Below, piece by piece: positions 2,352-62,390 of a stretch of DNA of 64,000 bases (positions are counted from its first letter, which is position 1; the number at the start of each line of letters is the position of its first letter). The stretch is from Eledone cirrhosa (lineage: Eukaryota): contig OZ024742.1 in NCBI GenBank assembly GCA_964016885.1, forward strand, positions 158,596,001-158,660,000, in the 5' to 3' direction. A model generated the notes under the pieces. The model worked only from the letters and a program-made list of their open reading frames with translations, did not search any database and was not told the origin of the DNA. The position numbers and the translations under genes are program-made.

Positions 2352-2401
2352 GCTTCCTGATGATTTCTCCCGAATGAAACAGTTCTAGTTCTGTAGAAGC
2401 C
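2351..2401 (+). ncRNA. Type I hammerhead ribozyme in a short PLE pLTR/tail fragment (2350-2486) between (TA)n tracts
   Basis: Stem I GGCTTC/GAAGCC, core CTGATGA, short stem II, GAAAC, stem III ACAG/CTGT, GTA cleavage triplet. Confidence 0.8.
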
Positions 2402-2930: not shown

Positions 2931-3283
2931 AATTTAAGCATATGGCCCTTTAGATTATTCATAACATTAGCCCCAGTTGCATGTGCGACCATTTCTCTAT
3001 TCTGATCCTTATTTTGGGGTGTTCGTATGGCTTTGGTCCATCCATTCCATCTTCGCATGGGAGTCTTTTTAGCCATTGATCCCATGGGAAGATGGAATGG
3101 ATGAACCAAAGCCATACGGACACCCCAAAACAATGATCAGGTGAGAGAAATGCTCGCACATGCAATAGGGGCTAGTGTTCAAACTACCCTAAAGGGCCAT
3201 ATGTTTAAATTTAACGGAAAGATCTACACCCAGAATGAAGGAGCAGCCATTGGCGTCAGCATAGCTGGTGATGTTGCCAATAT
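2931..3283 (+). pseudogene. PLE reverse-transcriptase fragment with an inverted copy of itself upstream
   Basis: HMFKFNGKIYTQNEGAAIGVSIAGDVAN resembles the PLE RT motif B' region; 2931-3052 is an inverted copy of 3089-3212. Confidence 0.65.
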
Positions 3284-3394
3284 ATGTATGTATATATATA
3301 TAGCAAAAGAGGACCCCGACGCTGAGCTCCGACCGTTTCGACAGCAAGATCTGGTGCGTTACGATCCACATGGTATTTTACCACACCATCTTTG

Positions 3395-3432
<38 letters not shown>

Positions 3433-3501
3433 AGCATGGCGTCCAACCCTCTACCGATACTGAAAATTCACCGCACTTACAACTCTCTCCGCACCCCACC
3501 C

Positions 3502-3537
<36 letters not shown>

Positions 3538-3544
<7 letters not shown>

Positions 3545-4704
3545 CAAATGGAAACTATATTTATAAAACCATATTTATTTCCTTATACATATTTCAAGGA
3601 CACCAAGTTAAATTATGGTGTGCTTTCATCAGATAAAATATAAATATTTATATATTATAAAATATATTATAAAATATATATATTTCTCAGAAAAATATAT
3701 AAGTTTAAGGAAATTCCTATATCTTATACATAAAAAGTCCTTTATCTATGTGTATGGTATGTGTAGGTATATATATATATATTTATATGTATGTGTATGT
3801 ATGTGTGCGTACGTATATATATGAATATATTCTTTTAATAATATATGGGTTTTAATAATATATAGATTTTTAATAATATATAGATCTCAACTTTTAATGT
3901 ATAGATCTCAATAATTTGATGGATAATTTAATTGATAAACTAAACATTTAATCATATTTAAACACTGGTTAAAATTCATTTTCCATTCACGAGTATTTTC
4001 CATTCACGCTTATTTACTTATTTACTTTACTCATCCAAAAATATTTATTTTTTCACTTCATCTTAAAAGTTATGCTATTAAAACAACCTATCACTTAGGG
4101 CTTTCTCTTTCTCTTTCACTTTCTCTTTTCTCTTTTCTTTTTTTTCTTCTCTTTCTCTCTTTCTCTTTTTCTCGTTTTCTTATTTTCCTCTTAAAGCTGT
4201 TTTTTTTTCTCTCTCTCTTTTTCTTTTTTCTTTTTTCTTTTTTCTTTTTTCTTTTTTCTTTTTTCTTTTTTCTTTTTTCTTTTTTCTTTTTTCTTTTTTC
4301 TTTTTTCTTTTTTCTTTTTTCTCTTTCCCTCTCTCCATACCCCAACGGCTTATTTTAAATCTACTGTGATTTTAAAATATCCGACACTAATTTGCATAAT
4401 ATTATAAATAAATTTATAACCTCACTATCCGGGAGCTTCCAACAGAAATAGTCGCATTCTTTGAGGGTATGTCAATATTTATTTATAAAACTGATCTATA
4501 TTATATTTTATCTGATGAAAGCACACCATAATTTAAGTTGGTGTCCTTGAAATATGTATAATGAAATAAATATGGTTTTATAAATATAGTTTCCATTTGT
4601 TAATATATCGTGTTTTTACTCCAATAATTTGTTGAGTGCTTTATATCAGTTATAAAAATATTTGCTTGTTGTATCCCAACAATTTAAATAGATCTTCTAC
4701 ATTT
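3538..4704 (+). mobile_element. Non-coding PLE derivative: about 105-bp inverted 5' copy, pyrimidine-rich body, hammerhead and tail ending in (TA)n
   Basis: 3538-3642 is the reverse complement of 4501-4606; hammerhead at about 4505-4567; flanked by (TA)n. Confidence 0.7.
4505..4567 (+). ncRNA. Type I hammerhead-like motif with ATA triplet
   Basis: Stem I ATTTTAT/ATGAAAT, CTGATGA, stem II ACACCA/TGGTGT, GAAAT-ATGT-ATA. Confidence 0.6.
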
Positions 4705-5462: not shown

Positions 5463-6144
5463 TATTGGAAGATGATTCTATTAGTAGAGATGGGGGAGGG
5501 AGTTGTGTGTGTGTATGGGTGTTATGTGTGTGTGTGCGAGTATGTTAAGATGGAGAGAATATATATTTTGTGTGTGTGTATATATATGTGTGTGTAGGAA
5601 AGTGGTTCTATTAGTAGAAATGGGGAGGGAGTTGTAGGTGTGGGGGTTGTTATGTGTGTGTATGGGTGTTATGTGTGTGGGAGTATGGTTAGCATGTTAA
5701 GATGAAGAGAATATATATATATATATATATTGTGTGTGTGTATGTAGGAAAGTGATTCCTTTAGTAGGAATATTTTTGAATGAACATATTTTCCTGACTT
5801 TCGTGTTTGCTGTTGTATTGCCAGTGCAAACGTATGTTAAGGTTTATTTAGTTCGGGTTTTTATTTTCTAAAGTAGAAGGTGTTATGTGTGTGTGTGTAT
5901 GTCCTATTGTGGTGTTGACATAATGTATATTAAACCTTATTTAATGTTGGTCTATATTTTTGAATAAACATATTTTCCTTATTTATTCGCATTTGTTCTG
6001 TTGTATTGTTAGCGAAAAGGTAAAATGGGAAGACTTGGAATTTGGGTGTCTTATTACTTGCGCAAATGTCTAGATGTGCACTTAGTGGTATCTGTCTCGT
6101 GGTTGGATCTCGTAATTGTTGGCGATGAACTGTCATTCTATTTC

Positions 6145-11597: not shown

Positions 11598-11790
11598 TTA
11601 GTATAGATGAGATTCTACAGGACTAGAACTGTTTCATTCTTTAGAAATCAATGATTCCTGATGATTTCTAAAGAATGAAACAGTTCTAGTCCTGTAGAAA
11701 CTCATCTATACTAAAACTTTTATACTCTGCAATGTATTGCGTACCTTACTTACTGTGGTTACCTCGGATTCAACCCGGAATAACGTATTT
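11594..11790 (+). mobile_element. Miniature PLE-tail insertion: 57-bp inverted copy, type I hammerhead (11653-11701) and tail, within (TA)n; same family as 2350-2486
   Basis: GATTC CTGATGA tttctaaagaat GAAACAG ttctagtc CTGTA GAAAC; 11594-11650 is the reverse complement of 11662-11718. Confidence 0.8.
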
Positions 11791-12540: not shown

Positions 12541-12960
12541 ATATAAGTATGTATACAGACGCACAGTAGTATGTATATATATACATACATGCACACATAT
12601 ATATATATGTACGTATGGGTTTACCAAACATTTATTATAATGTTCGGTTTGTTTGTAAACAAACAGCCCTAATTACGCCGTACAGTGTTCGGCAACCATC
12701 GTTGCCCTTTTGTTCAACACTGACAAAGGAACGATGAACTAGTTTCAAGCTTATTAGCTATCGTCAGCAGCGTATACCTTCTTGTCAGATGATTGAACGT
12801 TTGAAAGTATATACTTTCCTTATGCATATTATGGTAATTTGCATATCGAGTGAGTTAGTCGAGTGAGCGTACCGAAAACGATAAATGGAAAGGAATGAAA
12901 CGAAATTTCATTTCTCACTCTTAGTACGGCTGATACTTAAATATAAGTATGTATACATAC
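12541..12960 (-). mobile_element. Older copy of the about 417-bp hammerhead (retrozyme-like) family seen at 43951-44833
   Basis: Colinear homology including ACTAGTTTCAAGCTTATTAGCTATCGTCAG; triplet and stem I are decayed. Confidence 0.8.
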
Positions 12961-14231: not shown

Positions 14232-14250
14232 TATATATATATATATATAT

Positions 14251-19452
<5,202 letters not shown>

Positions 19453-41452: not shown

Positions 41453-42503
41453 GTTAATTTAATTTATTCGGTCCTCAATGTTGCCATTGACTGACCAACG
41501 GTAAAAAATACAGATACAATATAGACAGAAACACATATATAGTCTATCAAAGTTCTTTCGTTGCACATCTGCAACATCGTCAGTGTTGCTATTATGTTTC
41601 TTCCCGTTGCATTGTATGCTTACGCCATCTTTATTTAGTCTGTTTATTTATTTATTTATTTGTTTTTTTTTTGTTTTTTTTGTCTTCTCTGCGTATGCGT
41701 TTGCGTATAGTGTTTTGTTTCATGTTTGTTCTTGTTTGGGTGACTGTGTATTGGTTAATGTATTCTATCTTAGTTTACTAGTGTGTGTTTATATGTGTTT
41801 GTTGTTATTGTCTTGTGTATGTATTTATTTATTTATTTATTTATTTAATTATTTATTTATACTTCTCTTAGATCAGTGTTGTTTGTTTGGGTGTTGTTGT
41901 TATTCCATTCATTTTTTTCTGTTTAGCCTTGGCCTTCTAAGTTCTATTTCGCTGGCCTCTCGGATTTGCCTATCTGCTGGGTCATTTCTATGTTTAGATA
42001 TTATTCTAACTTCTATGTTATCTATGTTACCGTTGTGTTGTTGTCTGGCATGTTCGTATAGTACTGAACCGTTTTTTCGTCCTTTTAATTCCCCCCAGTG
42101 TTGGTCTATCCTTTCACCTATGCTACGATCTGTCTCGCCTATATATGTTGTTGTCATGTTTCTGCAAGTACCCTCTGTACATCTTATGCGATAGACTACG
42201 TTTCTAGTTTGACAGGTTTTCCGGGGGTTTACTCTACATATGTTACATTTCCTATTAGTACAGTGGGTTTTATTAAAAGGGTAGGTTTTGCTGATCAGGG
42301 ATTTTATGGTGGTTCCTGGCTTTTCTACCACCTTAATCTTTAAGTGGGTCTTTCTCAGGGCATTTCTACACTGGTTAGCTAATTTCCCTCCGGGGGTAGC
42401 GTCCAATTTCCCTCTGGGGCGTAAGCATACAATGCAACGGGAGGAAACATAATAGCAACACTGACGATGTTGCAGATGTGCAACGAAAGAACTTTGATAG
42501 ACT
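41453..42503 (-). mobile_element. 5'-truncated Neptune/Nematis-type PLE (GIY-YIG ORF 41909-42406) with hammerhead-like motif and short inverted 5' copy
   Basis: CTNRKCNIC linker, NVVYRIRC..C..YIGETDRSIGERIDQH..LYEH..RQIREA; CTGACGA-GTTGCA/TGCAAC-GAAAG motif at 41545-41587 (-) and inverted at 42457-42499 (+). Confidence 0.85.
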
Positions 42504-42513
42504 ATATATATGC

Positions 42514-43440
42514 GTATTGCTAATAAGTGTTTTTATGGAGGTACCTGGTCTTTCTACTATCTTAATATTGAGTTTATGTTTATCTAGGGTCCTTCTGAAA
42601 CATAAAAACACTTATTAGCAATACATACCTTTTCAAAGACCTCCCTGTATAGATAAGAAATGTATAATCTGTAAACTAAGCCCCCATATTAACTGTAAAA
42701 CTAGAAATGTAGTATATAGCATAAGATGACTGAAGGACAATGTAGAGATAAGAATATAGTGTACATAGGTGAGACAGCTCGTAGTATAGGAGAACGGATA
42801 AATGAACACTAGCGAGAGCTTCAATATAGTAAAGAATCATTTGTACTCTACCAAAATGCTAAAATAGAACATAAGGGTAAATTAGAGAACATAGAAATAA
42901 AAATAGAATCTACACACAGAAAAGACGCAATGTTTAATGTTTAGACAAATCACAGAGGCAATAAAGATAAATGAACTCCAACCAAAATTAAATAGAAAGC
43001 ATGAATGGAATAGTAACATCACAACTTACAATTAAGGACAAAATGAAAACACACACACACATAGAACAAACAACCAACCAGTAACATGTAAATAAACAAA
43101 TAAATAAACAAATAAATAAACAAATATAAACACACACAGACACCCGGATGTAACACATGCGCAAACTAAGCACACAACACACACAAAAACAACATGGCGT
43201 AGGACAGAACAAGGGAGAGGCACAAAAACAAAGAAAAGAATCCCCAGTCACTGAAGAGGTTACAGAATGTGTGACGAAATAACTTTGACAATATATGAAC
43301 CATCGTCTGGTTGTGGAACCAACCAACCAACCGGAAATTTATAAATTCCTAAATTTATAAATTTTATTTATAATAAATTGAAGTGAAAGCTATGGTGCGT
43401 GTGTTTCTTATTGGCAACATGACCCTCCCAAATTATAACA

Positions 43441-43950: not shown

Positions 43951-44833
43951 AACGGAAAAAATGAAACGAAATTTCATTTCCCACTCTTAGTACGGCTGTT
44001 ACTTAAATATAAGTATGTACACATACATACATATATGTATACAGACGTACAGTAGTATGTACATATATATACATACATGCACACATATATATATATATGT
44101 ACGTATGGATTCACCGAACATTTATTATAATGATCGGTGTGTTTTTAAACAAACATCCCGTATTAAGCCGTAGTGTCCAGCAACCATCGTTGCTCGTTTG
44201 TTCAACACTGACAAAGGAACGCTTTACTAGTTTCAAGCTTATTAGCTATCGTCAGCAACGTATACCTTCCTGCCAGATTGTTGAACGTATATACTTACCT
44301 TATGCATATTAACGGCTGAGTAGCCCAATTTGCATATCGAATGGGTTAATCAGCCGGGTGCACCGAAAACGATAAACGTCTGTATACATATAAGTATGTA
44401 CGTGTACATACTTATATTTAAGTAACAGCTGTACTAAGAGTGGGCAATGAAATTTCGTTTCCTTTTTTCCGTTCATCGTTTTCGGTGCACCCGGCCGATT
44501 AACCCACTCGATATGCAAATTGGGCTACTCAGCCGTTAATATGCATAAGGTAAGTATATACGTTCAACAATCTGGCAGGAAGGTATACGTTGCTGACGAT
44601 AGCTAATAAGCTTGAAACTAGTACAGCTTCCTTTGTCAGTGTTGAACAAACGAGCAACGATGGTTGCTGGACACTACGGCTTAATACGGGATGTTTGTTT
44701 ACAAACACACCGAGCATTATAATAAATGTTCGATGAATCCATACGTATATATATATGTGTGCATGTATGTATATATATGTACATACTACCGTACGTCTGT
44801 ATACATATATGTATGTACGTGTACATACTTATA
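43951..44833 (+). mobile_element. About 417-bp hammerhead retrozyme-like element: one inverted monomer (43951-44375) plus about 1.1 forward monomers (44376-44833) in (TA)n
   Basis: Arms are reverse complements; ACGTCTGTATACATAT.. repeated at 44376 and 44793; no ORF. Confidence 0.8.
44589..44627 (+). ncRNA. Minimal type I hammerhead ribozyme
   Basis: Stem I GTTG/CAGC with distal extension GTTCAACA..CTGGCAGGAAG / TTCCT..TGTCAG.TGTTGAAC; CTGACGA; stem II AGCT-AATA-AGCT; GAAACTAGTA with palindromic stem III. Confidence 0.8.
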
Positions 44834-47532: not shown

Positions 47533-50500
47533 GGAACGAGTAGGACCCCGACGGCTGAGCTCAAGCCGTTTCGACGGGTAATTCTGGACTAAATAGAAAT
47601 TTAGATTTTTTACATTTGAATAGCCGAGCTTCTCAGGGGGGTAATTCCATATATGGTAAAAGTGATTGTTACAAGAATTGGTCAAAAGTTTGTTGTTGAG
47701 ACATAATAATTCTATCATGGCAATTTGTGGAGGGAAGGGGTAGCTGAACCTGCCAGTAGAAGAAAGAGGGAGAGGGGGTGGAGGAAACCCAGTCGTAGTG
47801 CGTTGATAGTGTCAACTACAGCTGGGCATGAGGTCAAAGAAGATACTAGGGGGGGGTCGAAACAATAAGTAAAACAATATGGGGTAAATATATAGAGAAA
47901 AACCGAGGGTGTTAAAAAACAATTAAATGTGAAAAAAAAAAAATTCTGGTTACTATAACCTAAGGACAGCTATCAAGTCTCTCACTGGTACTGCTAGACT
48001 AAAGAAAGGTTTACTAGGTGTGACGGAATTATAATGAGACCCTTTTAAGAGGTATAAGTAAACAACCGAATATATCTTACAGTGACGGGTCAACAAGTGG
48101 GGGGCCAAAATACTAAAGAAACTACCACGAAATAATAATTCAGAGTCCCGAGACCAGTACGAAATAGAGGTTTCTACCCCAGGCACAAGGCCAGCAACCA
48201 CACAGTGCAAAAAAAAAAAGTAAACTAATACGAAATAATAATTCAGAATCCCGAAAAAGAAAACTAATACTATCTCTAAGGGTGCTGCCACGATACAAAA
48301 ATGCTAGTGCAAACTACATAAATGCTTGTACAAAGTATATGTAAAATTTGATACGGAAAATTAATTCAGAATCCCCCCCCCCCCAAAAAAAATAATAAAT
48401 ACTGATATACGTGATGATGGGCTCCTTACCCTTAAAGGGTACAATCCCAGTAGTACAGATCGGGTCCGTAAACAATTAATCAGCTTCTTCCGCGACTGGG
48501 GATTTAAAATAACCCTACAAACGTACCTGACCCGAGTAAACTTCCTGGACGTTACCCTTGACCTCGATAATGGTCTGTACTACCCATACAGGAAACCTAA
48601 CGACAACCTGCACTATATCCACCGCCGGTCAAACCATCCTAGGAACATCATCAATAACCTGGTTAAAAACATCTCTCTCCGCATATCTCGTTTGTCAGCT
48701 AATGAGCAGATATTCGAAGAACATGCGCCTTATTACAATCAGGCCCTCAAGCGGAGTGGTTTCCGGGATGAAATATCCTACTGTCCAGCTTCCATTAGCG
48801 GAACCAGCAGGCGACACCGCCGCTCACGTAACGTAACATGGTTTAATCCTCCCCACAACGCCGAGGTGACAACTCCTATCGGAAAAATCTTCTTTGGGCT
48901 CATTGAAAAACACTTCCCACTACAACACCGCTACCACAACATAATTAACAAAAATACCATCAAACTCTCCTACAGCACCACACCAAACTTTGCACAAAAC
49001 ATCGTCTCCTCTAACAACAAAAAACTCAACCCCTATGGAAGAAATAACCTAAATAGCAGTGGAGAGCCGACCAGGAGGTGCAACTGTCCTGATAGATCCA
49101 TTTGCCCCCTCGACAACAGATGCAGAGATCGTAATGTGATCTACCAGTGCAATGTGAGGACGGACACCTCCAACAAAGCTTATATAAAATTAACCGCATG
49201 TGACTTCAAGACCCGGCTATACCAACACAGACAAACCTTCCGAAACCCACGCCACTACACTTTCGGACCACATATGGGACCTCAAGGATAACAATATTAC
49301 CTATGATCTCACTTGGAGCTTACTGTCCAGAGCCAACTCTTACACGGGAGGACGCCGTCCGTGCAATTTATGCTCGGAGGAAACTTTACAAATGTTGTTT
49401 TCGACGGACCAACTCCTAAACAAGAAAGATGAACTGGTAACTGCATGTAAACACAGATTGCGTAGGACTTACCACGCCCTCAAACCCCATAATGACCAGG
49501 GGGTAGACTAGGGCTATAACACCCCACTTACCGATTTTGTAATGGGTAACCCCTGCTTGCAAAGGTAGACCTAAGATGTTCTTTTATATCTTTTTATCAC
49601 TTCCGCTATATTTCCTTCTTCCCCCCATCCCTCCCTAGTCCTTCCACCCCAGTCCTCTTTCTTTGTCCTCGTCCTTTTACTTTCTCGCCCACCGAGGCAG
49701 CCCCTCGGTCCTTTGTAGCCTCAGTACCCCCACCCCCTTCCCCTATTCTATGATAGATTTGGCCGACGCCGCTTTTTATAGCAGATGTGTTAGACCCCGG
49801 ATACTTGCCTTCTTATCCGATGGCTGCCCTTTTTCCGTGCTTTCTATATTTCTTAGTGGTATCTTTGCTTTAATTTCTCGTATATCAGTATTTTTTTTTT
49901 GGGGGGGGGGGGGGGTTCTGAATTAATTTTCCGTATCAAATTTTACATATACTTTGTACGAGCATTTATGTAGTTTGCACTAGCATTTTTGTATCGTGGC
50001 GGCACCCTTAGAGATAGTATTAGTTTTCTTTTTCGGGATTCTGAATTATTATTTCGTATTAGTTTGGGGGGTTTTTTGCACTGGGTGGTTGCTGGCCTTG
50101 TGCCTGGGGTAGAAACCTTTATTTCGTACTGGTCTCGGGACTCTGAATTATTATTTCGTGGTAGTTTCTTTAGTATTTTGGCCCCCACTTGTTGACCCGT
50201 CACCGTAAGATATATTCGGTTGTTTACTTATACCTCTTAAAAGGGTCTCATTATAATTCCGTCACACCTAGTAAACCTTTCTTTAGTCTAGCAGTACCAG
50301 TGAGAGACTTGATAGCTGTCCTTAGGTTATAGTAACCAGAATTTTTTTTTTCACATTTAATTGTTTTTTAACACCCTCGGTATTTCTCTATATATTTACC
50401 CCATATTGTTTTACTTATTGTTTCGACTTCCTCCCCCCACCCCCCTAGTATCTTCTTTGACCTCATGCCCAGCTGTAGTTGGCACTATCAACGCACCACG

Positions 50501-50832
50501 ACTTGGTTTCCTCCACCCCTTCTCCCTCTTTCTTCTACTGGCAGGTTCAGCTACCCCTTTCCTCCACAAATTGCCATGATAGAATTATTATGTCTCATCA
50601 ACAAACTTTTGACCAATCCTTGTGACAATCACTTTTACCATATATGGAATTACCCCCTGAGAAGCTCGGCTATTCAAATATAAAAAATATAAATTTTTAT
50701 TTAGTCCAGAATTACCCGTCGAAACGGCTTGAGCTCAGCCGTCGGGGTCCTACTCGTTCCTATTACCCACTCTACTACTATTGAGTACTTTGGTGCGTTA
50801 TGGTCCACCTGGTTCCTTACCATATTCCTTCG

Positions 50833-50834
<2 letters not shown>
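47533..50834 (+). mobile_element. 5'-truncated Naiad-type Penelope-like element with an about 880-bp inverted pLTR copy at its 5' end, in (TA)n
   Basis: 47533-48411 is the reverse complement of 49879-50761; coding remnant lies between; tail ends at (TA)n. Confidence 0.9.
48410..49511 (+). pseudogene. PLE RT (from RDDGL), thumb, Cys linker and GIY-YIG endonuclease; one frameshift near 49250
   Basis: RDDGL, VNFLDVTLDL, PYRKPND..YIHRRSNHP, WFNPP, IKLSYS, CNCPDRSICPLDNRC, VIYQC..YI..T..FKTRLYQH, TTLSDHIWDLK, CNLCSEE. Confidence 0.9.
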
Positions 50835-50873
<39 letters not shown>

Positions 50874-51161: not shown

Positions 51162-51629
51162 ACCTCCAAGCTTGATTGGTGCGGAGGGTGATATTTGGAC
51201 AACATGCGGGATTAAATACAAGACCTGGCAAAGGGCGGAGGAACTCTGCAGAATCAACGGCCATCCAAATAGATTTTTTTTTTTTTGCAAAGAGGTTAAA
51301 CTCCGTCGCATAAAAAGCTGAGAGTTCTCGTTGTATTTTCCGTGGCAAACATTTGCACCGAAGATATGTGTTGTCTGTTCCAAAAAAGTGTGGTTGGTCC
51401 TACACAAGCCTTCACCAGTTAAAACAAAACTTTCTGTGGGTAGTTCAACATCAGTTCACTTTCTCACATTTAACTTTTGTTGGACACTCATACGTCGGAC
51501 ATCGACGGGAGAGATCATGATATATATATATATAAAAGGAACGATCGACTTTCGTCAAATCGGACCGAGGAATTAATGTTTCCATTGGTCTTTCCAATTT
51601 CTAATACTATCTATCGGTCACAACTCACA

Positions 51630-52020
51630 TACACTGTATGCTTAATTAAAAACATTTTGAAAACCTTACGCTATACTATATATACATTCATATATACATC
51701 GCTATTTCAGAGCACCAATTCTTATTTTCAATTTTTGCTGGACCGGCAGCCGCTCTGTATAATCTGTTCCTGATTATTACTGGAATTCTATAAGAATCCA
51801 ACATCTATAATTTTTAACAGACAAAGGCGAGTGCTAAGCTCTGATGAATACCAACAGTATGAAACAGATCTGTCAGCTTATCTCCCTTTTTATGTTGAAA
51901 AATGAAGTATGTGACATAGTTACTACTTTTAAACAATAGCGTAAGGTCTTCAAAATGTTTTTAATTAAGCATACAGTGTATTGTCAAATATACTATATAT
52001 ACATTCATATGTATATATAT
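51630..52020 (+). mobile_element. Diverged relative (about 317-bp monomer) of the 310-bp retrozyme-like unit, with 45-bp inverted 5' piece and terminal direct repeat
   Basis: Shared blocks TCGCTATTTCAGAGCA, TGCYGGACCGGCA.CCGCTCT, ATAGCG..AGGTCTTCAAAATGTTT; TATACTATATATACATTCATAT at 51672 and 51989. Confidence 0.8.
51835..51880 (+). ncRNA. Type I hammerhead ribozyme
   Basis: Stem I TAAGCT/AGCTTA, CTGATGA, stem II ATAC-CAACA-GTAT, GAAACAGATCTGTC (palindromic stem III, GTC triplet). Confidence 0.88.
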
Positions 52021-56909: not shown

Positions 56910-57466
56910 CACAGTTACGTCCCTTTACGGACTGAGTTCAAATCCCGCTGAGGTTAACTTTGCCTTTCATCCTTACGAGGTCGATAAAATAAAGGATAAT
57001 TGCTGGCCTTGTGCCAAAAGTAGAAACAATTATTATTACTGTGTATTGGCAGTAATGGTAGAGGGTCGGACGCCATGCTTTGACGCATAGAGTTACGGCC
57101 CTTGCCATTCTGAGTTCAAATCCATCCGAGGTTAACTTTGCCTTTCATCCTTACTGGGTCGATAAAATAAAGTACCAGTCACGCACTGGGGTCTATTTAA
57201 TCGACTTTCCCTTCCGCCAAAATTGCTGGCCTTGTGCCTATATAAGAAACAATTATTATTGTGGATTGGCAGTAATGTTAGAGGGTCGGACGCCATGCTT
57301 TGACGCATAAAGTTACGGCCCTTGCCATTCTGAGTTCAAATCCAGCCGAGGTTAACTTTGCCTTTCATCCTTACGGGGTCGATAAAATAAAGTACCAGTA
57401 ATGCACTGGGTAATTTGTTGGCCTTGTGCCAAACGTAGAAACAATTATTATTATTATTATTATTAT
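56910..57466 (+). mobile_element. Three tandem SINE family A copies ending in (ATT)n
   Basis: Cores repeated at about 56960, 57140 and 57360. Confidence 0.85.
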
Positions 57467-59792
57467 AACAGCAGTGAAGTACCGGAGGCAATGACTTGCA
57501 ACACAAGGAGTAAATCGCCTGGTTTGGATGGTCTGCTCTATGAACTGTACGTACAGATGCCAGACTTGTTCGGAGGCCTCTTGGCGGACGTCTACTGCAA
57601 CTGGCAACAGAACGGGAGAATTCCCAGCTCTGTGAGCCGAGGAGCAGTGGCGTTGGTGAGAAAGGATCCGAACAACGGGGATAACATAGACAATTTCAGG
57701 CCCATAACTCTGCTAAACACAGAGTTCAAGATTTTGGCAAGGTACTAGCAAAGAGGTTGGCGTTTGTCATTGGTGGTCTGGTGGGAGAGGCGCAGACATT
57801 CGACATTCCAAACAGATCCATTCACGACAACCTCCACCTCATGGAGAGGGTAGCTAGGGAACCTGACATGGGTGGGTCTTTGATCAATTTAGATCAGTCG
57901 AAAGCTTTCGATAGGGTCGGCCATCGTTATCTGGCGGCAGTCCTGAGGGCGGCTGGCTTTGATCCCGTCTTCAGAGGCTGGATCGCTGCCATGCACAGCG
58001 ACATCTGCTCTGTGGTGAGAGTTAACGGTCACCTTTCGGAACCATTCAACATCATGCGCTCGGTCGCCAAGGATGTCCTCTCTCGTCCCTCTTGTACGTA
58101 TTGACTCTCGAACCATTACTGCACAAACTGGAGACGTTGAAGGGGATCCCGCGCAAACTAGGATGCGGAAGATCCGTGTCAGCATATGCGGACGATGTCA
58201 CCGTAGTGGTGTCGAACGCCAAACACATCGAGGCGATCGGCACCACACTAAGAGAATACGAAGCGGTGACAGGAGCAATGATCAACCAGGAAAAGTCTGT
58301 GGGCCTGCAGCTCGGCACCTGGATAGGCAGATCCATGCTGTCCAACAGCGTCGTCGGGCGCTGGACGGGCGGACCGGTTAAATTGCTAGGGGTCTGGTTC
58401 GCTCCGGACCTCCAGACGAACAAAAATTGTGATGAGGTGACGAGCAGGGTGGCTTCTCTCACCCAGAAATGGGCAGAGAGGAAGCTATCTCTGAAAGGTC
58501 AAGCGGAGGTGGCTAACGCGTATATCGCGTCCGTCATCTACTACCGCCTGACCGTCGTGCCTTGTTCTAAGCCTCGCCTGACTGCAGTGGAGCGTTTGCT
58601 CTTTCGCTTTTTGTGGAAGGCACGCGCTCCGATGGTCAGGCGGTCCATCTGCTGTCAACACCCGCTACGTGGAGGGCTAGGCATGCCGTGGCTGATGATG
58701 CGCAGACACGCGCTCAGGCTACGACCTCTCCACCTCTTCCTCGACGGTGATCAGGTGAGGTCGCCGTTTGCTAGACGCGTCTTTCCCCGACGGAGCTGCA
58801 GTCCTGGGTCAAGTGAAGACCGAGGGGGAGCGCTTGGAGACTGGAATGTCTTCAGGCGCTCACAGCCCTCGACCAATCGGGCAAGTGTCGGTGGAAACTC
58901 CACCTTGGCGTTCTATAGAGGATTAGTGGAGGGGAAGATAGACGTCGTGCTTGGGGAAACACTAGGCCTCAACAAAGATCAACTAGCCAATCTCTTCGGA
59001 AGAACTTTCGGACCGGGGCCTATGACAATTTCCAGAAATCCCTGACCTGGCAGTGCTACCGAGGAGTTTTGCCAGTTCGGGATAAACTCTACAGGGACGG
59101 AAGTACCGTGAGCCGGGCATGTCCGAGATGCGCGCAGGGCGACGAAACCGTCCTGCACGCACTCGTCCAGTGTCTGAGCATTGCTGACTTGTGGGTTTAT
59201 GTCGAACACCTGCTGTCGCGTGTAGGACGGATCCAGCTATCAGTTGAGTCCATCGTGAGGATTGCCCCGCCCTCTTCCTTTAGCCGGGAAAGGCAGGCAG
59301 TTTTTATCTGTCTGGTGGCCATGGCGAAAGAGATAGTATGGTGGACACGTTTGAAAGGGCTGCAGACGAGCACTTACCTCTTCTGTGATGCCCTGATTAA
59401 CTTTTTCAAATTTCATTTGAAAAGGAAAATCAGGGTAGAGAGGGAGGTGCTCTCTTCCCAGCATTTTGTTGAAAGATGGGTGAGAGAGGCAAGAATGGCC
59501 CGAGTGAATGGACCTACTCTGAGTATGTGCCTCTAAATTGAAGGTGTAAAACTGGGAGAGGGCACTTGCCCTGGTGGTCAGAGTCACCGTGGTTTTTTAA
59601 TGGGCTTTCTCTACGAATATCCCTCGGAAGTCTCCCCACTATGGGGAATTTTTCATTGTTTTTTTTTTTTTGTTACATCCTCTGTTTTTTGTTTTTTTAA
59701 CACGCAGAAATGCCCATTTGTACCGTCCTGTATTGTCCAGTACTGTCCTTAATGTATACTTTGTGTAAACCCTTGTGGTTAATAAAGAAAGC
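57465..59792 (+). mobile_element. 5'-truncated Tx1/L1-clade LINE (frameshifted ORF2 RT plus C-terminal CCHC), GC-rich
   Basis: KSPGLDGL.YELY, NFRPITLLNTEFKILA, LDQSKAFDRV, SAYADD, GGLGMP, CPRC..ETVLHALVQC; AATAAA at 59781. Confidence 0.88.
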
Positions 59793-59810: not shown

Positions 59811-62390
59811 GAGTCTGAACGGACGTCTTTTTGCTCGCTCCCGTAAGTTCACTTATTTACCTATCAAAACTGATTTATTGAATTTTTTGTTGTTGTGTAA
59901 GGCATACAAGCATTGGCTCCCAACTGTCAGCTTCGTATTTGTGCAGGTTGTTTTTCTCCATCTGAACACAGTCCTCTATGCTGATAAGACCTCTTCCACC
60001 TTCAGATCTCCTTAAGTAGAGTCTATCGACATCACTCCTCTTGTGGAACATGTTGTAGATAGTCATTAGCTTGCTAGTCTTCTTATCCATTTCTTTTTGT
60101 TCAGCAACATTGCATTTCAGAATTCCCGCACTGTACATAATAATAGATACAGCTCGGGAATTCACTGCACTTATGGCATTCCTACTATTTAGATGTGATT
60201 TTAATACGCTCCTTACTCTCCGAATGTATTCAGATCTTATCAATTCCTTCATTTTTTTTGTTTTTGATGTCATCTGCCTCCAGAACACCTAAATATGTGT
60301 ATCCCTCTTCAGTCTCAATTTAATTTATCATCTCACCTTTGGTACCTGGATTCCGTTGCTTCATCACAAGGACTCCACACTTATTAACACCAAATTCCAT
60401 ACATATATCATTTCTGAAAATACGGACAGTGTCAACAAGTACATCCAACTCCTTCTTACTCTTCCCAAAGAGTTTAAGATCATCCATGAAGGGGAGGTGG
60501 TCGATGGTAAGCTCTCCTTTTCCCAACTTGTATCCTGCTCTCACTTTTCGAAATATCTGCCACCTTGAAGATCTCTAGGCTTTTGGTTTTCCAAGAATGA
60601 GGTACTATGTCGAATGCCTTTTTGTAATCTATCCATCTCATGCAAGACCAGTGTGCTTCCTCTTGCAATTCCTCATTAACATCTTATCAATAAGTAACTG
60701 GTCTTTTGTACCACGAGACTTCTTTCGGCATCTTTTCTGTTCGTCCCGTAACAAGTTGTTTATGTGGAGGTGATGGTAGATTTCCTCAGACATAATGCTT
60801 GTTAACGGCTTCCACATTACGGACAGACATGTGATAGGTCTATAGTTGGTAACATCATTACCCTTGATTCGGTCTTTCATTACCAGAACTGTGGTACCTT
60901 TTGTCAACCACTCTGGTACCTCACCTGACATCAAGTAGTCATTGAACATGGTTGTCAGTTTCGGGTGGAGGGATGTTATATTTTTAATCCAATACCCTTG
61001 CACACCATCTGGGCCTGGTGATTTCCAGTTGGTTAGTTTTTTGGCCTGCCCTTTAAGAGTTTCAACTGTGATACTCAAATCAGTTTGTTGGTGCGCTTGC
61101 TCACTAATCTCCTTTTGTACTGTCTCAATCCACACTGCCTGACTATTATGTTCAACATCATACTCCCATATTCCTCTCCAGAATGTCTTAGTTTGTTCCG
61201 CCTCAGGGATCACGTCGTTGCCTCTTTCTTTCCCTTCAAGCTGTCCAAACAACATCTTCTGGTTGTGGTCAAACATGCGGTTCTGTCTATACTGACTAAC
61301 TCTCTTCTCATAACGCCTAATCTTTGCACTTTTTGTTACAATGCGTTGCTTCAGTCCCTCTATGATAACATTTAGCTCTTTCCCCCTAGTTTTGTATTTT
61401 ATTTTCAATCTATCTTTAGTGTCTATGTTTTGTAAAGTCCCATTCAGTAAAGGCTCAAGCTTTCCAATGTCTTTTCTCATTTCCTTGATTTGACCATTCA
61501 GTCGTTTCTTCCACCAAGGTTCTTATCTTTCTTGTTTGTTGTTTCCTCTCGTTTTTATACCAAGTAATTTCCTCACTGCATTTGCGGTTGCTTTGAGGAT
61601 ATTGTTGCATTGGTGAAGGTTCCTCGCCTCAAGGTATGGGATGACTTTGTTTACCTTAGCTGTTGTTTCTTTTAACTTTTTCCTGTCTACAAATCTTAGG
61701 TTCATAGGTTTTCCACTATCATTGTTCATTTCATCTACCACTAAGTTCAGGATATCAACCAAATCTTGCCCTCGCCCGTCAGCATTCATTTCCTCAATGG
61801 CCGTATCTTTGTTCCAGATGTTATTTATTTCAGCATTCAGATCATTGTCTGCTTCGGATGCTTCCTCAGGTCTCTCAACCTCTTCACCTGCATTTCCCAC
61901 TGGCTCGTTTGCCTGATATACTCCACTCTCCATTTCCAACTTAATCTCTCTGCTCAATTCCTCCAGTTCCAACTCGCTAATCCATCCATTAGTTCTTATT
62001 ACCCGAGCCTGTCCGGCCAATTTTTGTTCACCTAATTTAAATAGACCAATCTCGTTCCAGATGTTTTGCATCCGTTTCCTATAGTCTTTTTCCATGGGGT
62101 TACTCTTCAGGTAACATTCCATGTCAGTTCTATTCAATTCTTTCGTCCAGTTTGTTCTCGTCCCATTCCTTCTTCCTCCTCCAACAGTATTTGGATGACA
62201 GCCAGGTCCTTGCTGCTGGGCCAGGGAGCACTTGCTGGGTTAGAGTCTTTCACGTGACGTTCCAGTCTCCTTTTCACCGTTATTCGAACTGATTAGGTTC
62301 GACATTTAAACACACATATCGAGGATTGGTGAATGTATGGTTATATAACCACCGGTCATTTTAGCGTGGCACCATCACCTTGTAGACGAA
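59811..62390 (-). mobile_element. R4/Dong-clade non-LTR retrotransposon, internally deleted (lacks the RT QGD motif and most of the CCHC/RLE region), ending in (AAT)n
   Basis: ATG at 62305, NWTKELN..MECY..YRKRM..W, NWKSPGPDGVQGYWIK, NYRPITCL, SRGTKDQLLID, WIDYKKAFD, FMDDLKL, DVDRLYL.RSEGGRGL. Confidence 0.85.

What the first reader, a model, noticed from the sequence alone, without database searches (positions are those of the whole stretch)
51630..52020. Sister family (about 317 nt) keeps non-ribozyme structural blocks but carries a different hammerhead
Seen: it shares ATAGCG/CGCTAT (potential long-range helix), AGAGC/GCTCT, the TGCYGG-A-CCGGCA hairpin (G-U compatible change) and GGTCTTCAAAATGTTT with the 310-bp unit. 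All three hammerhead stems differ (TAAGCT/AGCTTA, ATAC/GTAT, ACAGATCTGT, GTC triplet) yet remain fully paired. The layout is 45-bp inversion, one monomer, then a 22-bp terminal repeat, starting at a different phase from the array, as expected from a circular template. Inference: selection acts on both the ribozyme fold and a second conserved RNA domain, possibly an RT-recognition or promoter element.
Basis: partly seen in the sequence, partly recalled or inferred. Interest (0 to 1): 0.72.

Follow-up and report, generated by a model that had tools for sequence, protein, structure and literature searches.

The report
Retrozyme with frozen copying-start domain
This is one copy of an abundant protein-free jumping repeat whose predicted self-cutting RNA part has been rewritten repeatedly while a second block stayed almost unchanged, and because most copies end at two fixed points at that block, it likely marks where a borrowed Penelope-type enzyme starts copying the RNA.

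Summary
The element is one copy of a dispersed non-coding family (B), sister to the 310-bp array (A); together they form a lineage of at least seven subfamilies.
(1) The hammerhead is not a different one. It is the same ribozyme by descent, with its stems rewritten compensatorily (17 of 24 pairs change on both sides; C3-G8 swaps with U3-A8) about four times faster than the rest.
(2) The named blocks do not covary (0 of 16 pairs); they are frozen in sequence.
(3) Only 5' ends vary. Outer ends fall at two homologous sites about 34 nt apart that bracket CGCTAT-AGAGC: 179 of 231 B arms and 33 of 33 A arms. A coding RT/GIY-YIG Penelope-like element of this genome shows the same two-end pattern.
Best reading: a non-LTR retrozyme copied by a Penelope-type enzyme, with the frozen block as its likely binding and start element and a circle as the likely template. 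No partner element, RNA data or cleavage test was obtained. The scan noted the two-armed pattern before on other DNA of this genome. Verdict: new member of a known kind.

The parts
51629..51674 (-). Short inverted arm, copy of 51936-51981; its outer end is at neither fixed site (atypical for the family)
51672..52010 (+). Forward arm: one 317-nt unit plus a 22-nt exact repeat; crosses the predicted cut site once
51686..51699 (+). Internal copy of end site 1 (after TTCA, in a TA-rich stretch predicted single-stranded in most subfamily folds)
51700..51713 (+). CGCTAT (P1 strand) and AGAGC (P2 strand); lie between the two end sites, i.e. in the 'tail'; invariant in 7 of 7 subfamily majorities
51714..51735 (+). 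U-rich predicted loop that holds end site 2 (about 51723-51725)
51736..51756 (+). TGCYG-GAC-CGGCA hairpin (P3) and GCTCT (P2 partner), downstream of both end sites; A-versus-B identity 0.92
51785..51797 (+). Predicted hairpin P5 with an invariant TTCTATAAG cap; lower stem differs between A and B
51814..51899 (+). Type I hammerhead with extended stem I and distal helix; core motif 51835-51880; predicted cut after C51874 (GUC)
51911..51923 (+). Predicted hairpin P6; conserved within B, replaced by another hairpin in A
51936..51960 (+). ATAGCG (P1 partner) and GGTCTTCAAAATGTTT; A-versus-B identity 0.88
51955..51994 (+).
52004..52016 (+). Outer 3' end at site 1, merging into TA-rich target DNA
14239..15672 (-). 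Family A array, inverted arm (4.6 units), ending at site 1
15672..19314 (+). Family A array, forward arm (11.8 units), ending at site 2

Best explanation
This is a copy of a non-coding, hammerhead-bearing repeat family (a non-LTR retrozyme) whose copies mostly end at two fixed sites about 34 nt apart, and the sequence-frozen block around those sites is likely the binding and start element for a borrowed Penelope-type RT/endonuclease that would copy a probably circular 317-nt RNA. Shown by sequence: dispersed family; shared descent with the 310-bp array; two homologous end sites; variable 5' ends; head-to-head two-armed insertions, usually one arm per site; TA-rich targets; compensatory turnover of the hammerhead; near-invariance of the block. 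Inferred: tandem transcripts self-cleave after GUC and are ligated to circles; a Penelope-like protein (predicted dimer in PMC11167929) binds the P1/P2/P3 junction, cuts both strands of TA-rich DNA and primes from each end at one of the two single-stranded sites; the two cDNAs join head to head.
For: End sites: 179 of 231 B arms from 143 loci (113 site 1, 66 site 2; 23.5 expected if uniform); 33 of 33 A arms from 19 insertions, and 14 of 14 two-armed A insertions have one of each. The sites are homologous in A and B. In-genome control: a coding PLE (775 aa, Pfam RVT_1 E 1.3e-6 just under the cut-off, GIY-YIG E 4.4e-6) ends at two fixed sites in 29 of 29 determined outer ends (36 junctions examined; 4 undetermined, 3 internal). 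PMC11167929 shows that a PLE RT starts at two internal sites, that the 30-40-nt tail lies between them, and that RNA downstream of the sites is required. Constraint: identity among B subfamily majorities is 0.67 in the hammerhead and 0.92 elsewhere; A versus B is 0.81-0.92 in the blocks against 0.27-0.56 in two linkers, P4 and P6. After insertion the blocks decay like the rest (0.03-0.05 against 0.025-0.085 per site in 47 copies recruited without block patterns). Hammerhead: 17 of 24 pairs change on both sides, score 0.59 against at most 0.145 for slid controls, C3-G8 15 / U3-A8 12. Continuous template: 5' ends near the cut site in 7 of 231 arms, about chance; variants private to L065, L069 and L076 are shared by the units of both arms. 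RNA passage: A>G 16 against T>C 2 on the hammerhead strand in family A.
Against: No partner found: three young coding PLE families show no similarity to the block (0 of 37 loci at E < 3; in 19 loci one 27-nt hit at a locus edge that matches an A tail; shuffle test negative), and their tails differ in length (67 nt). P1, P2 and P3 have 0 of 16 pairs changed on both sides, and G-U versus A-C departures among B copies are not skewed (169 against 145 cells), so the second fold is predicted only. 52 of 231 B arm ends lie elsewhere; 28 of 65 two-armed B insertions have at least one off-site end and 6 have site 1 twice; this window's short arm is off-site. Loci were partly chosen by block patterns or full length, which inflates block conservation and cut-site crossing (150 of 179 arms). 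The A>G excess is absent in three B groups and is one of many tests (p 0.005 by sites). In PMC11167929 uncleaved RNA was the main substrate and the ribozyme was dispensable in vitro; in the 2026 preprint only 1 of 9 frog retrozymes cleaved.
Confidence: 0.62

Rival explanations
1. The frozen block is an internal promoter read as DNA, and the fixed ends are set by other features nearby.
For: Sequence invariance without covariation is what a DNA element gives. An invariant TATAAG is present. Newt satellite 2 has an snRNA-type promoter and the schistosome satellite a Pol III promoter (passage in PMC2220036). A dual role is possible.
Against: No Pol III A or B box on the sense strand of any B majority; only scattered mismatched hits elsewhere. 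The invariant strands are mutually complementary over 240 nt in all 7 groups, and both end sites sit against them. TATAAG caps a hairpin whose lower stem was replaced in A. An snRNA-type promoter could not be tested.
Confidence: 0.15
2. The blocks are only shared ancestry; the long hammerhead hairpin is hypermutable (editing, template switching between arms), which creates the contrast without selection on a second domain.
For: The hammerhead helices diverge faster than unpaired linkers within B (0.62-0.66 against 0.82-0.84 identity), which suggests a raised rate there. A>G excess in family A.
Against: Between A and B the blocks (0.81-0.92) are far more conserved than neighbouring non-hammerhead segments (0.27-0.56). 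CpG-containing block positions decay in inserted copies but not in subfamily majorities. The core swap C3-G8/U3-A8 is coupled in 27 of 27 rows.
Confidence: 0.1
3. The block binds a host protein (RNA ligase or an RNP that stabilises the circle), and the RT start sites lie beside it only because those stretches are single-stranded and TA-rich.
For: Circularisation of metazoan retrozymes likely needs a host ligase, and the circles are thought to be protected in vivo (PMC7229834 abstract and Discussion). Site 1 has TA microhomology with the target.
Against: The block lies 60 to 200 nt from the ligation junction. Site 2 is sharp (42 of 66 ends at two adjacent positions) although other U/A-rich loops are available.
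Confidence: 0.08
4. The template is a linear uncleaved multimer, not a circle (this rival concerns the template only and is compatible with RT recognition of the block).
For: PAc used unprocessed RNA in vitro. Family A has a weak hammerhead (U-U at the base of stem II, ACGCGT stem III) and long arrays. Only 9 of 179 B arms cross the cut site twice or more.
Against: Arrays homogeneous for different variant sets imply a one-unit bottleneck (inference). If RNA downstream of the start is required, a linear route loses a unit per generation (inference). Repeated template jumping on a linear monomer would also fit.
Confidence: 0.3

Closest known systems
Metazoan non-LTR retrozymes (Cervera and de la Pena 2020, PMC7229834; passages and Discussion read. 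Li, Clavereau and Pollet 2026, 10.64898/2026.07.22.740005; parts 1-3 of 5 read)
   Same: Non-coding unit of about 310 nt with a type I hammerhead, low GC, monomers and multimers, predicted highly self-paired circle, U-U mismatch at the base of stem II as in axolotl HHR_Amex2, coexistence with PLEs.
   Different: In the parts read, neither paper maps insertion ends or a second conserved domain. Family B is mostly 1-1.5 units per arm (median arm 319 nt), not tandem arrays. No homology to a PLE pLTR was found here, whereas 24 of 57 frog families matched known elements.
Penelope-like element PAc / Poseidon_Ac (Frangieh et al. 2024, PMC11167929; parts 1-2 of 4 read)
   Same: Two start sites downstream of the hammerhead cut, a 30-40-nt tail between them, AT-rich targets, both strands extended, RNA downstream of the sites needed.
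   Different: PAc is protein-coding and its start region lies in the ORF; here the unit is non-coding and the start sites lie about 130 and 165 nt after the cut.
PLE insertion architecture, including Neptune, Hydra and Naiad clades (Craig et al. 2021, PMC8557442; passages and supplement hits read)
   Same: Partial tandems, inverted 5'-truncated copies, tail at only one end, (TA)n preference, no clear target duplication.
   Different: No ORF. Four of five block motifs searched had no matching context in the supplement text (two absent motifs of 10 and 13 nt, one of 9 nt; two single hits in unrelated elements; line breaks can hide matches).
PLE hammerhead variants (Cervera and de la Pena 2014, PMC4209133; passages read)
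   Same: Palindromic stem III, U3-A8 core variant, high within-genome hammerhead variability with compensatory changes.
   Different: Here stem I (6 bp) and stem II (4 bp) are canonical in size and sit on a long distal helix; A10.1-A11.1, C-A or U-U replace the usual G10.1-C11.1.

Membership tests
Metazoan non-LTR retrozyme | Non-coding unit of about 150-450 nt | tested here: met
   Period 317; no ORF of 120 aa or more over the element
Metazoan non-LTR retrozyme | Type I hammerhead in each unit | tested here: met
   Core and stems by inspection and covariation; Rfam did not report it
Metazoan non-LTR retrozyme | Tandem copies with at least two hammerheads | tested here: inconclusive
   Met for family A; this copy has one hammerhead; 9 of 179 B arms cross the cut site twice or more
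Metazoan non-LTR retrozyme | Dispersed, multi-copy, no LTR structure | tested here: met
   2,301 candidates, 40 scored; 858 exact non-A pattern hits; PBS and PPT were not searched for
Metazoan non-LTR retrozyme | Self-cleavage | not testable with these tools
   No assay possible
Metazoan non-LTR retrozyme | Expressed as linear and circular RNA | not testable with these tools
   No RNA holder listed
Non-autonomous Penelope-like element | Two fixed 3' ends with a 30-40-nt tail | tested here: met
   about 34 nt from TTCA to CCAA/CTAA
Non-autonomous Penelope-like element | Partial tandem and inverted 5'-truncated arms, microsatellite targets | tested here: met
   TA-type flank at 51 of 66 site-2 and 58 of 113 site-1 B ends
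Non-autonomous Penelope-like element | Sequence shared with the pLTR of a coding PLE | tested here: inconclusive
   Not met for the three families tested; the genome's other PLE families were not sampled
Pol III SINE | Internal A and B boxes | tested here: not met
snRNA-promoter satellite (newt satellite 2 type) | snRNA-type promoter elements | not testable with these tools
   No promoter consensus for this animal was at hand

The most novel reading that the evidence does not exclude
The frozen block is a dedicated RNA docking domain that presents two single-stranded templates about 34 nt apart to the two RT subunits of a Penelope-like dimer on one RNA circle. It would be the cis element for retrozyme mobilisation, functionally like the template-positioning domain of telomerase RNA, and it has outlasted at least seven rewritings of the attached ribozyme scaffold.
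Probability: 0.3. Interest if true: 0.72.

Novelty: new member of a known kind. Interest (0 to 1): 0.45.

Why it matters
That PLEs mobilise animal retrozymes is proposed but, in the papers read here, not shown, and the RNA element that a PLE RT recognises is known only roughly for one lizard element. This lineage separates a fast-changing ribozyme from a frozen block of about 130 nt that sits at the mapped start sites. It therefore gives a minimal substrate, natural variants and exact start positions for an in vitro test. PLE RTs are the closest relatives of telomerase RT (PMC8557442 abstract), so a defined template-positioning RNA would interest that field too.

Tried and rejected
Rfam: no match at gathering score; 11 weak unrelated hits. 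DNA search with the A unit returned nothing, probably because its words are too common; patterns were used instead. One search's pattern failed to exclude family A; corrected. Partner search: three coding PLE families were negative. A tail-like end in L265 was unique (1 hit), and a tail-variant pattern returned mainly A/B mutants plus an unrelated hairpin family. Hammerhead swap rejected: A's scaffold without the core aligns with all six B groups (z 3.7-9.4), and hammerhead and rest distances correlate within B (Spearman 0.75). The tree step failed and was not repeated, so mosaicism was not tested on trees. A GGUCU/GGACC pseudoknot was considered; both strands are invariant and it was not tested. 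Expression: no RNA holder listed. Three runs of unknown type, one sample, were laid; they show the same subfamily variants and far lower depth over the hammerhead than over the blocks, but depth is no copy number and is not used as evidence. Look-up of earlier findings by sequence: nothing. Literature searches found no description of this family or of a second conserved domain in retrozymes; an octopus repeat annotation has no occurrence of 'ribozyme' in its main text (PMC13282606, passages); PMC8490949 passages added nothing. Subscription journals, Repbase and the preprint's supplements were not seen and may bear on novelty.

Full report
Observation. The element is a 46-nt inverted arm (51629-51674) joined head to head, through a 3-nt overlap, to a forward arm of one 317-nt unit plus a 22-nt exact repeat. 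It is 67% identical to the 310-bp unit of the array at 14239-19314 (score 290 against 75 +/- 11 for 300 shuffles). A profile search of the window finds no other member. The organism is an animal with a 3.0-Gb assembly.

Family. A DNA search gave 2,301 candidates, of which 40 were scored at 91-100% identity. The shared 21-nt motif has 17,808 exact hits and the control 0; 858 hits fit a pattern that excludes family A and 375 a pattern for an older hammerhead variant. From 328 profile hits I kept 112 full-length B monomers, added 15 A monomers (one per locus), and clustered them into seven groups of 4 to 42 members; 10 monomers fell outside groups of three or more and were left out of group statistics. 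Family A is young (1.3% from its majority) and forms arrays; B groups are older (4-8%) and short (median arm 319 nt, 90% under 437 nt).

The hammerhead is one ribozyme, rewritten. Stem I keeps 41 of 42 pairs over the seven majorities although the sequences differ; stem II keeps 3 or 4 of 4, with a mismatch at its base in five groups; the core is CTGATGA in three groups and TTGATAA in four. On a 27-row alignment of real copies, 17 of 24 pairs change on both sides, the covariation score is 0.59 against at most 0.145 for slid controls, and C3-G8 (15 rows) alternates with U3-A8 (12 rows) without exception. Cells count related copies, not events. U3-A8 is a known natural variant in PLE hammerheads (PMC4209133 passage). 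With the core removed, A's scaffold still aligns with the B groups (z 3.7 for this copy's group, 8-9 for three older ones), so it was not swapped. The 46-nt motif alone folds no better than chance; the 95-nt domain with its distal helix does (z -3.4). Cleavage is untested.

The second block is frozen, not covarying. Identity among B majorities is 0.67 in the hammerhead domain and 0.92 in the rest. Between A and B, three segments stay at 0.81, 0.92 and 0.88 while two linkers, P4 and P6 fall to 0.27-0.56; the U-rich linker stays at 0.76. In 47 copies recruited without block patterns, the blocks decay after insertion like other regions, so they are mutable and were kept in the source elements (inference). 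All circular folds place P1 (CGCTAT/ATAGCG); P2 and P3 form in all but one group. Yet P1-P3 show 0 of 16 pairs changed on both sides, and G-U departures barely exceed A-C ones (169 against 145). Compensation outside the ribozyme is limited to H1 (U-A, U-G, C-G in 15 copies) and H2 (A-U, G-U, G-C in 12 copies; U-A to A-U in family A); the changes counted in P5 and P6 come from family A, whose alignment there is doubtful. The sense strand of this unit folds better than shuffles (z -3.0) and the antisense does not (z -0.3); for the A unit both strands do.

Ends. Numbered from the predicted cut, B arms end near 142 or near 168: 113 and 66 of 231 arms in 143 loci, against 23.5 expected if uniform; 52 end elsewhere, some probably from broken old copies. 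Of 65 two-armed B insertions, 31 have one end at each site, 6 have site 1 twice, none has site 2 twice and 28 have an off-site end, as this copy does. In family A, 33 of 33 ends in 19 insertions are at the homologous sites, and 14 of 14 two-armed insertions have one of each. A's junctions place site 1 after TTCA, so the spacing is about 34 nt. 5' ends are spread over the unit, with 7 of 231 near the cut. This is the PLE tail signature (PMC8557442 passages), which PMC11167929 ties to two internal RT start sites with downstream RNA required. A coding RT/GIY-YIG element of this genome shows the same pattern in 29 of 29 determined ends, with sites 76 and 143 nt after its own hammerhead.

Mechanism. 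Shown: the above. Inferred: a Penelope-like protein binds the frozen junction, cuts TA-rich DNA on both strands and primes from each end at one of two predicted single-stranded stretches that flank CGCTAT-AGAGC; both cDNAs run through the cut site and are joined head to head. P3 and GCTCT lie downstream of both sites, so they are not in the terminal copy of a typical arm, yet they are the best conserved segment, as expected for a binding element. A circle is favoured: in family A nearly all units of both arms share one variant set, including variants seen in one insertion only, and A>G exceeds T>C 16 to 2 on the hammerhead strand (one of many tests, absent in B). Linear multimers or template jumping are not excluded.

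Against. No partner was found among three young coding PLE families, and other PLE families were not sampled. No RNA data were available. Sampling partly used the blocks and full length. A promoter role remains possible, since newt and schistosome hammerhead satellites carry internal promoters (PMC2220036 passage); no Pol III boxes were found with recalled consensus patterns.

Comparison and novelty. It works like, and meets the testable features of, a metazoan non-LTR retrozyme (PMC7229834, passages and Discussion; 2026 preprint, parts 1-3 of 5). Seven literature searches found no account of this family or of a second conserved domain; paywalled papers, Repbase and the preprint's supplements were not seen. 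Earlier unchecked notes of this scan describe the two-armed, two-site pattern for this and other families on other DNA of the genome; they are not independent support, and my tail reading was recorded before the first look-up. What this locus adds is the seven-subfamily series that separates a fast-changing ribozyme from a frozen block at the start sites. Verdict: new member of a known kind; interest 0.45.

Noticed in passing
window 5933-6133 (-); full copies L314-L317: Remnant of a very young coding PLE (775-aa ORF, RT and GIY-YIG, CX4CXXC linker) with a U3-A8-type hammerhead core and two fixed ends 67 nt apart in (TA)n; its second end finishes in TTCTAAT, like site 2 of this copy's subfamily.
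   Followed up: partly
window 41556-42532 and 3105-3566; L263-L265: Remnants of a young PLE-like family with open frames up to 1,217 aa, a type I hammerhead motif and (TA)n targets; no Pfam hit.
   Followed up: partly
window 48365-50850; L266, L267: Copy of an abundant element with open frames of about 790 aa; by eye it resembles Hydra-clade PLE proteins in the supplement of PMC8557442; not tested formally.
   Followed up: partly
window 2357-2379 and 11658-11680: Another hammerhead family whose stem II (TTTC/GAAT, U-U at the base) matches family A's, with a longer stem III.
   Followed up: no
window 12743-12767 (-), 44231-44255 (-), 44593-44617 (+): A further hammerhead family with a palindromic stem III; two inverted copies near 44.2-44.6 kb.
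   Followed up: no
window array 15672-19314: Two forward-arm units 1,550 bp (five units) apart share one C>G variant, which suggests a five-unit duplication or a multimeric template.
   Followed up: no
family A loci L047, L061-L076, L101: A>G excess on the hammerhead strand (16 against 2 events; 11 against 2 sites), compatible with RNA editing fixed by reverse transcription.
   Followed up: partly
window 51560-51626: The left flank is a high-copy repeat that stops at the insertion; its usual continuation is not on the right flank, and no target duplication is seen.
   Followed up: partly
L231:3100-6300: An old B copy repeated three times at about 1.5-kb spacing, probably a local duplication.
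   Followed up: no
B subfamilies: Hammerhead helices diverge faster than unpaired linkers (0.62-0.66 against 0.82-0.84 identity), unexplained; could be editing, arm-to-arm template switching or selection for change.
   Followed up: partly
window 57386-59536 (+) and 59875-62239 (-): Broken LINE-type reverse transcriptase frames (Pfam RVT_1).
   Followed up: no
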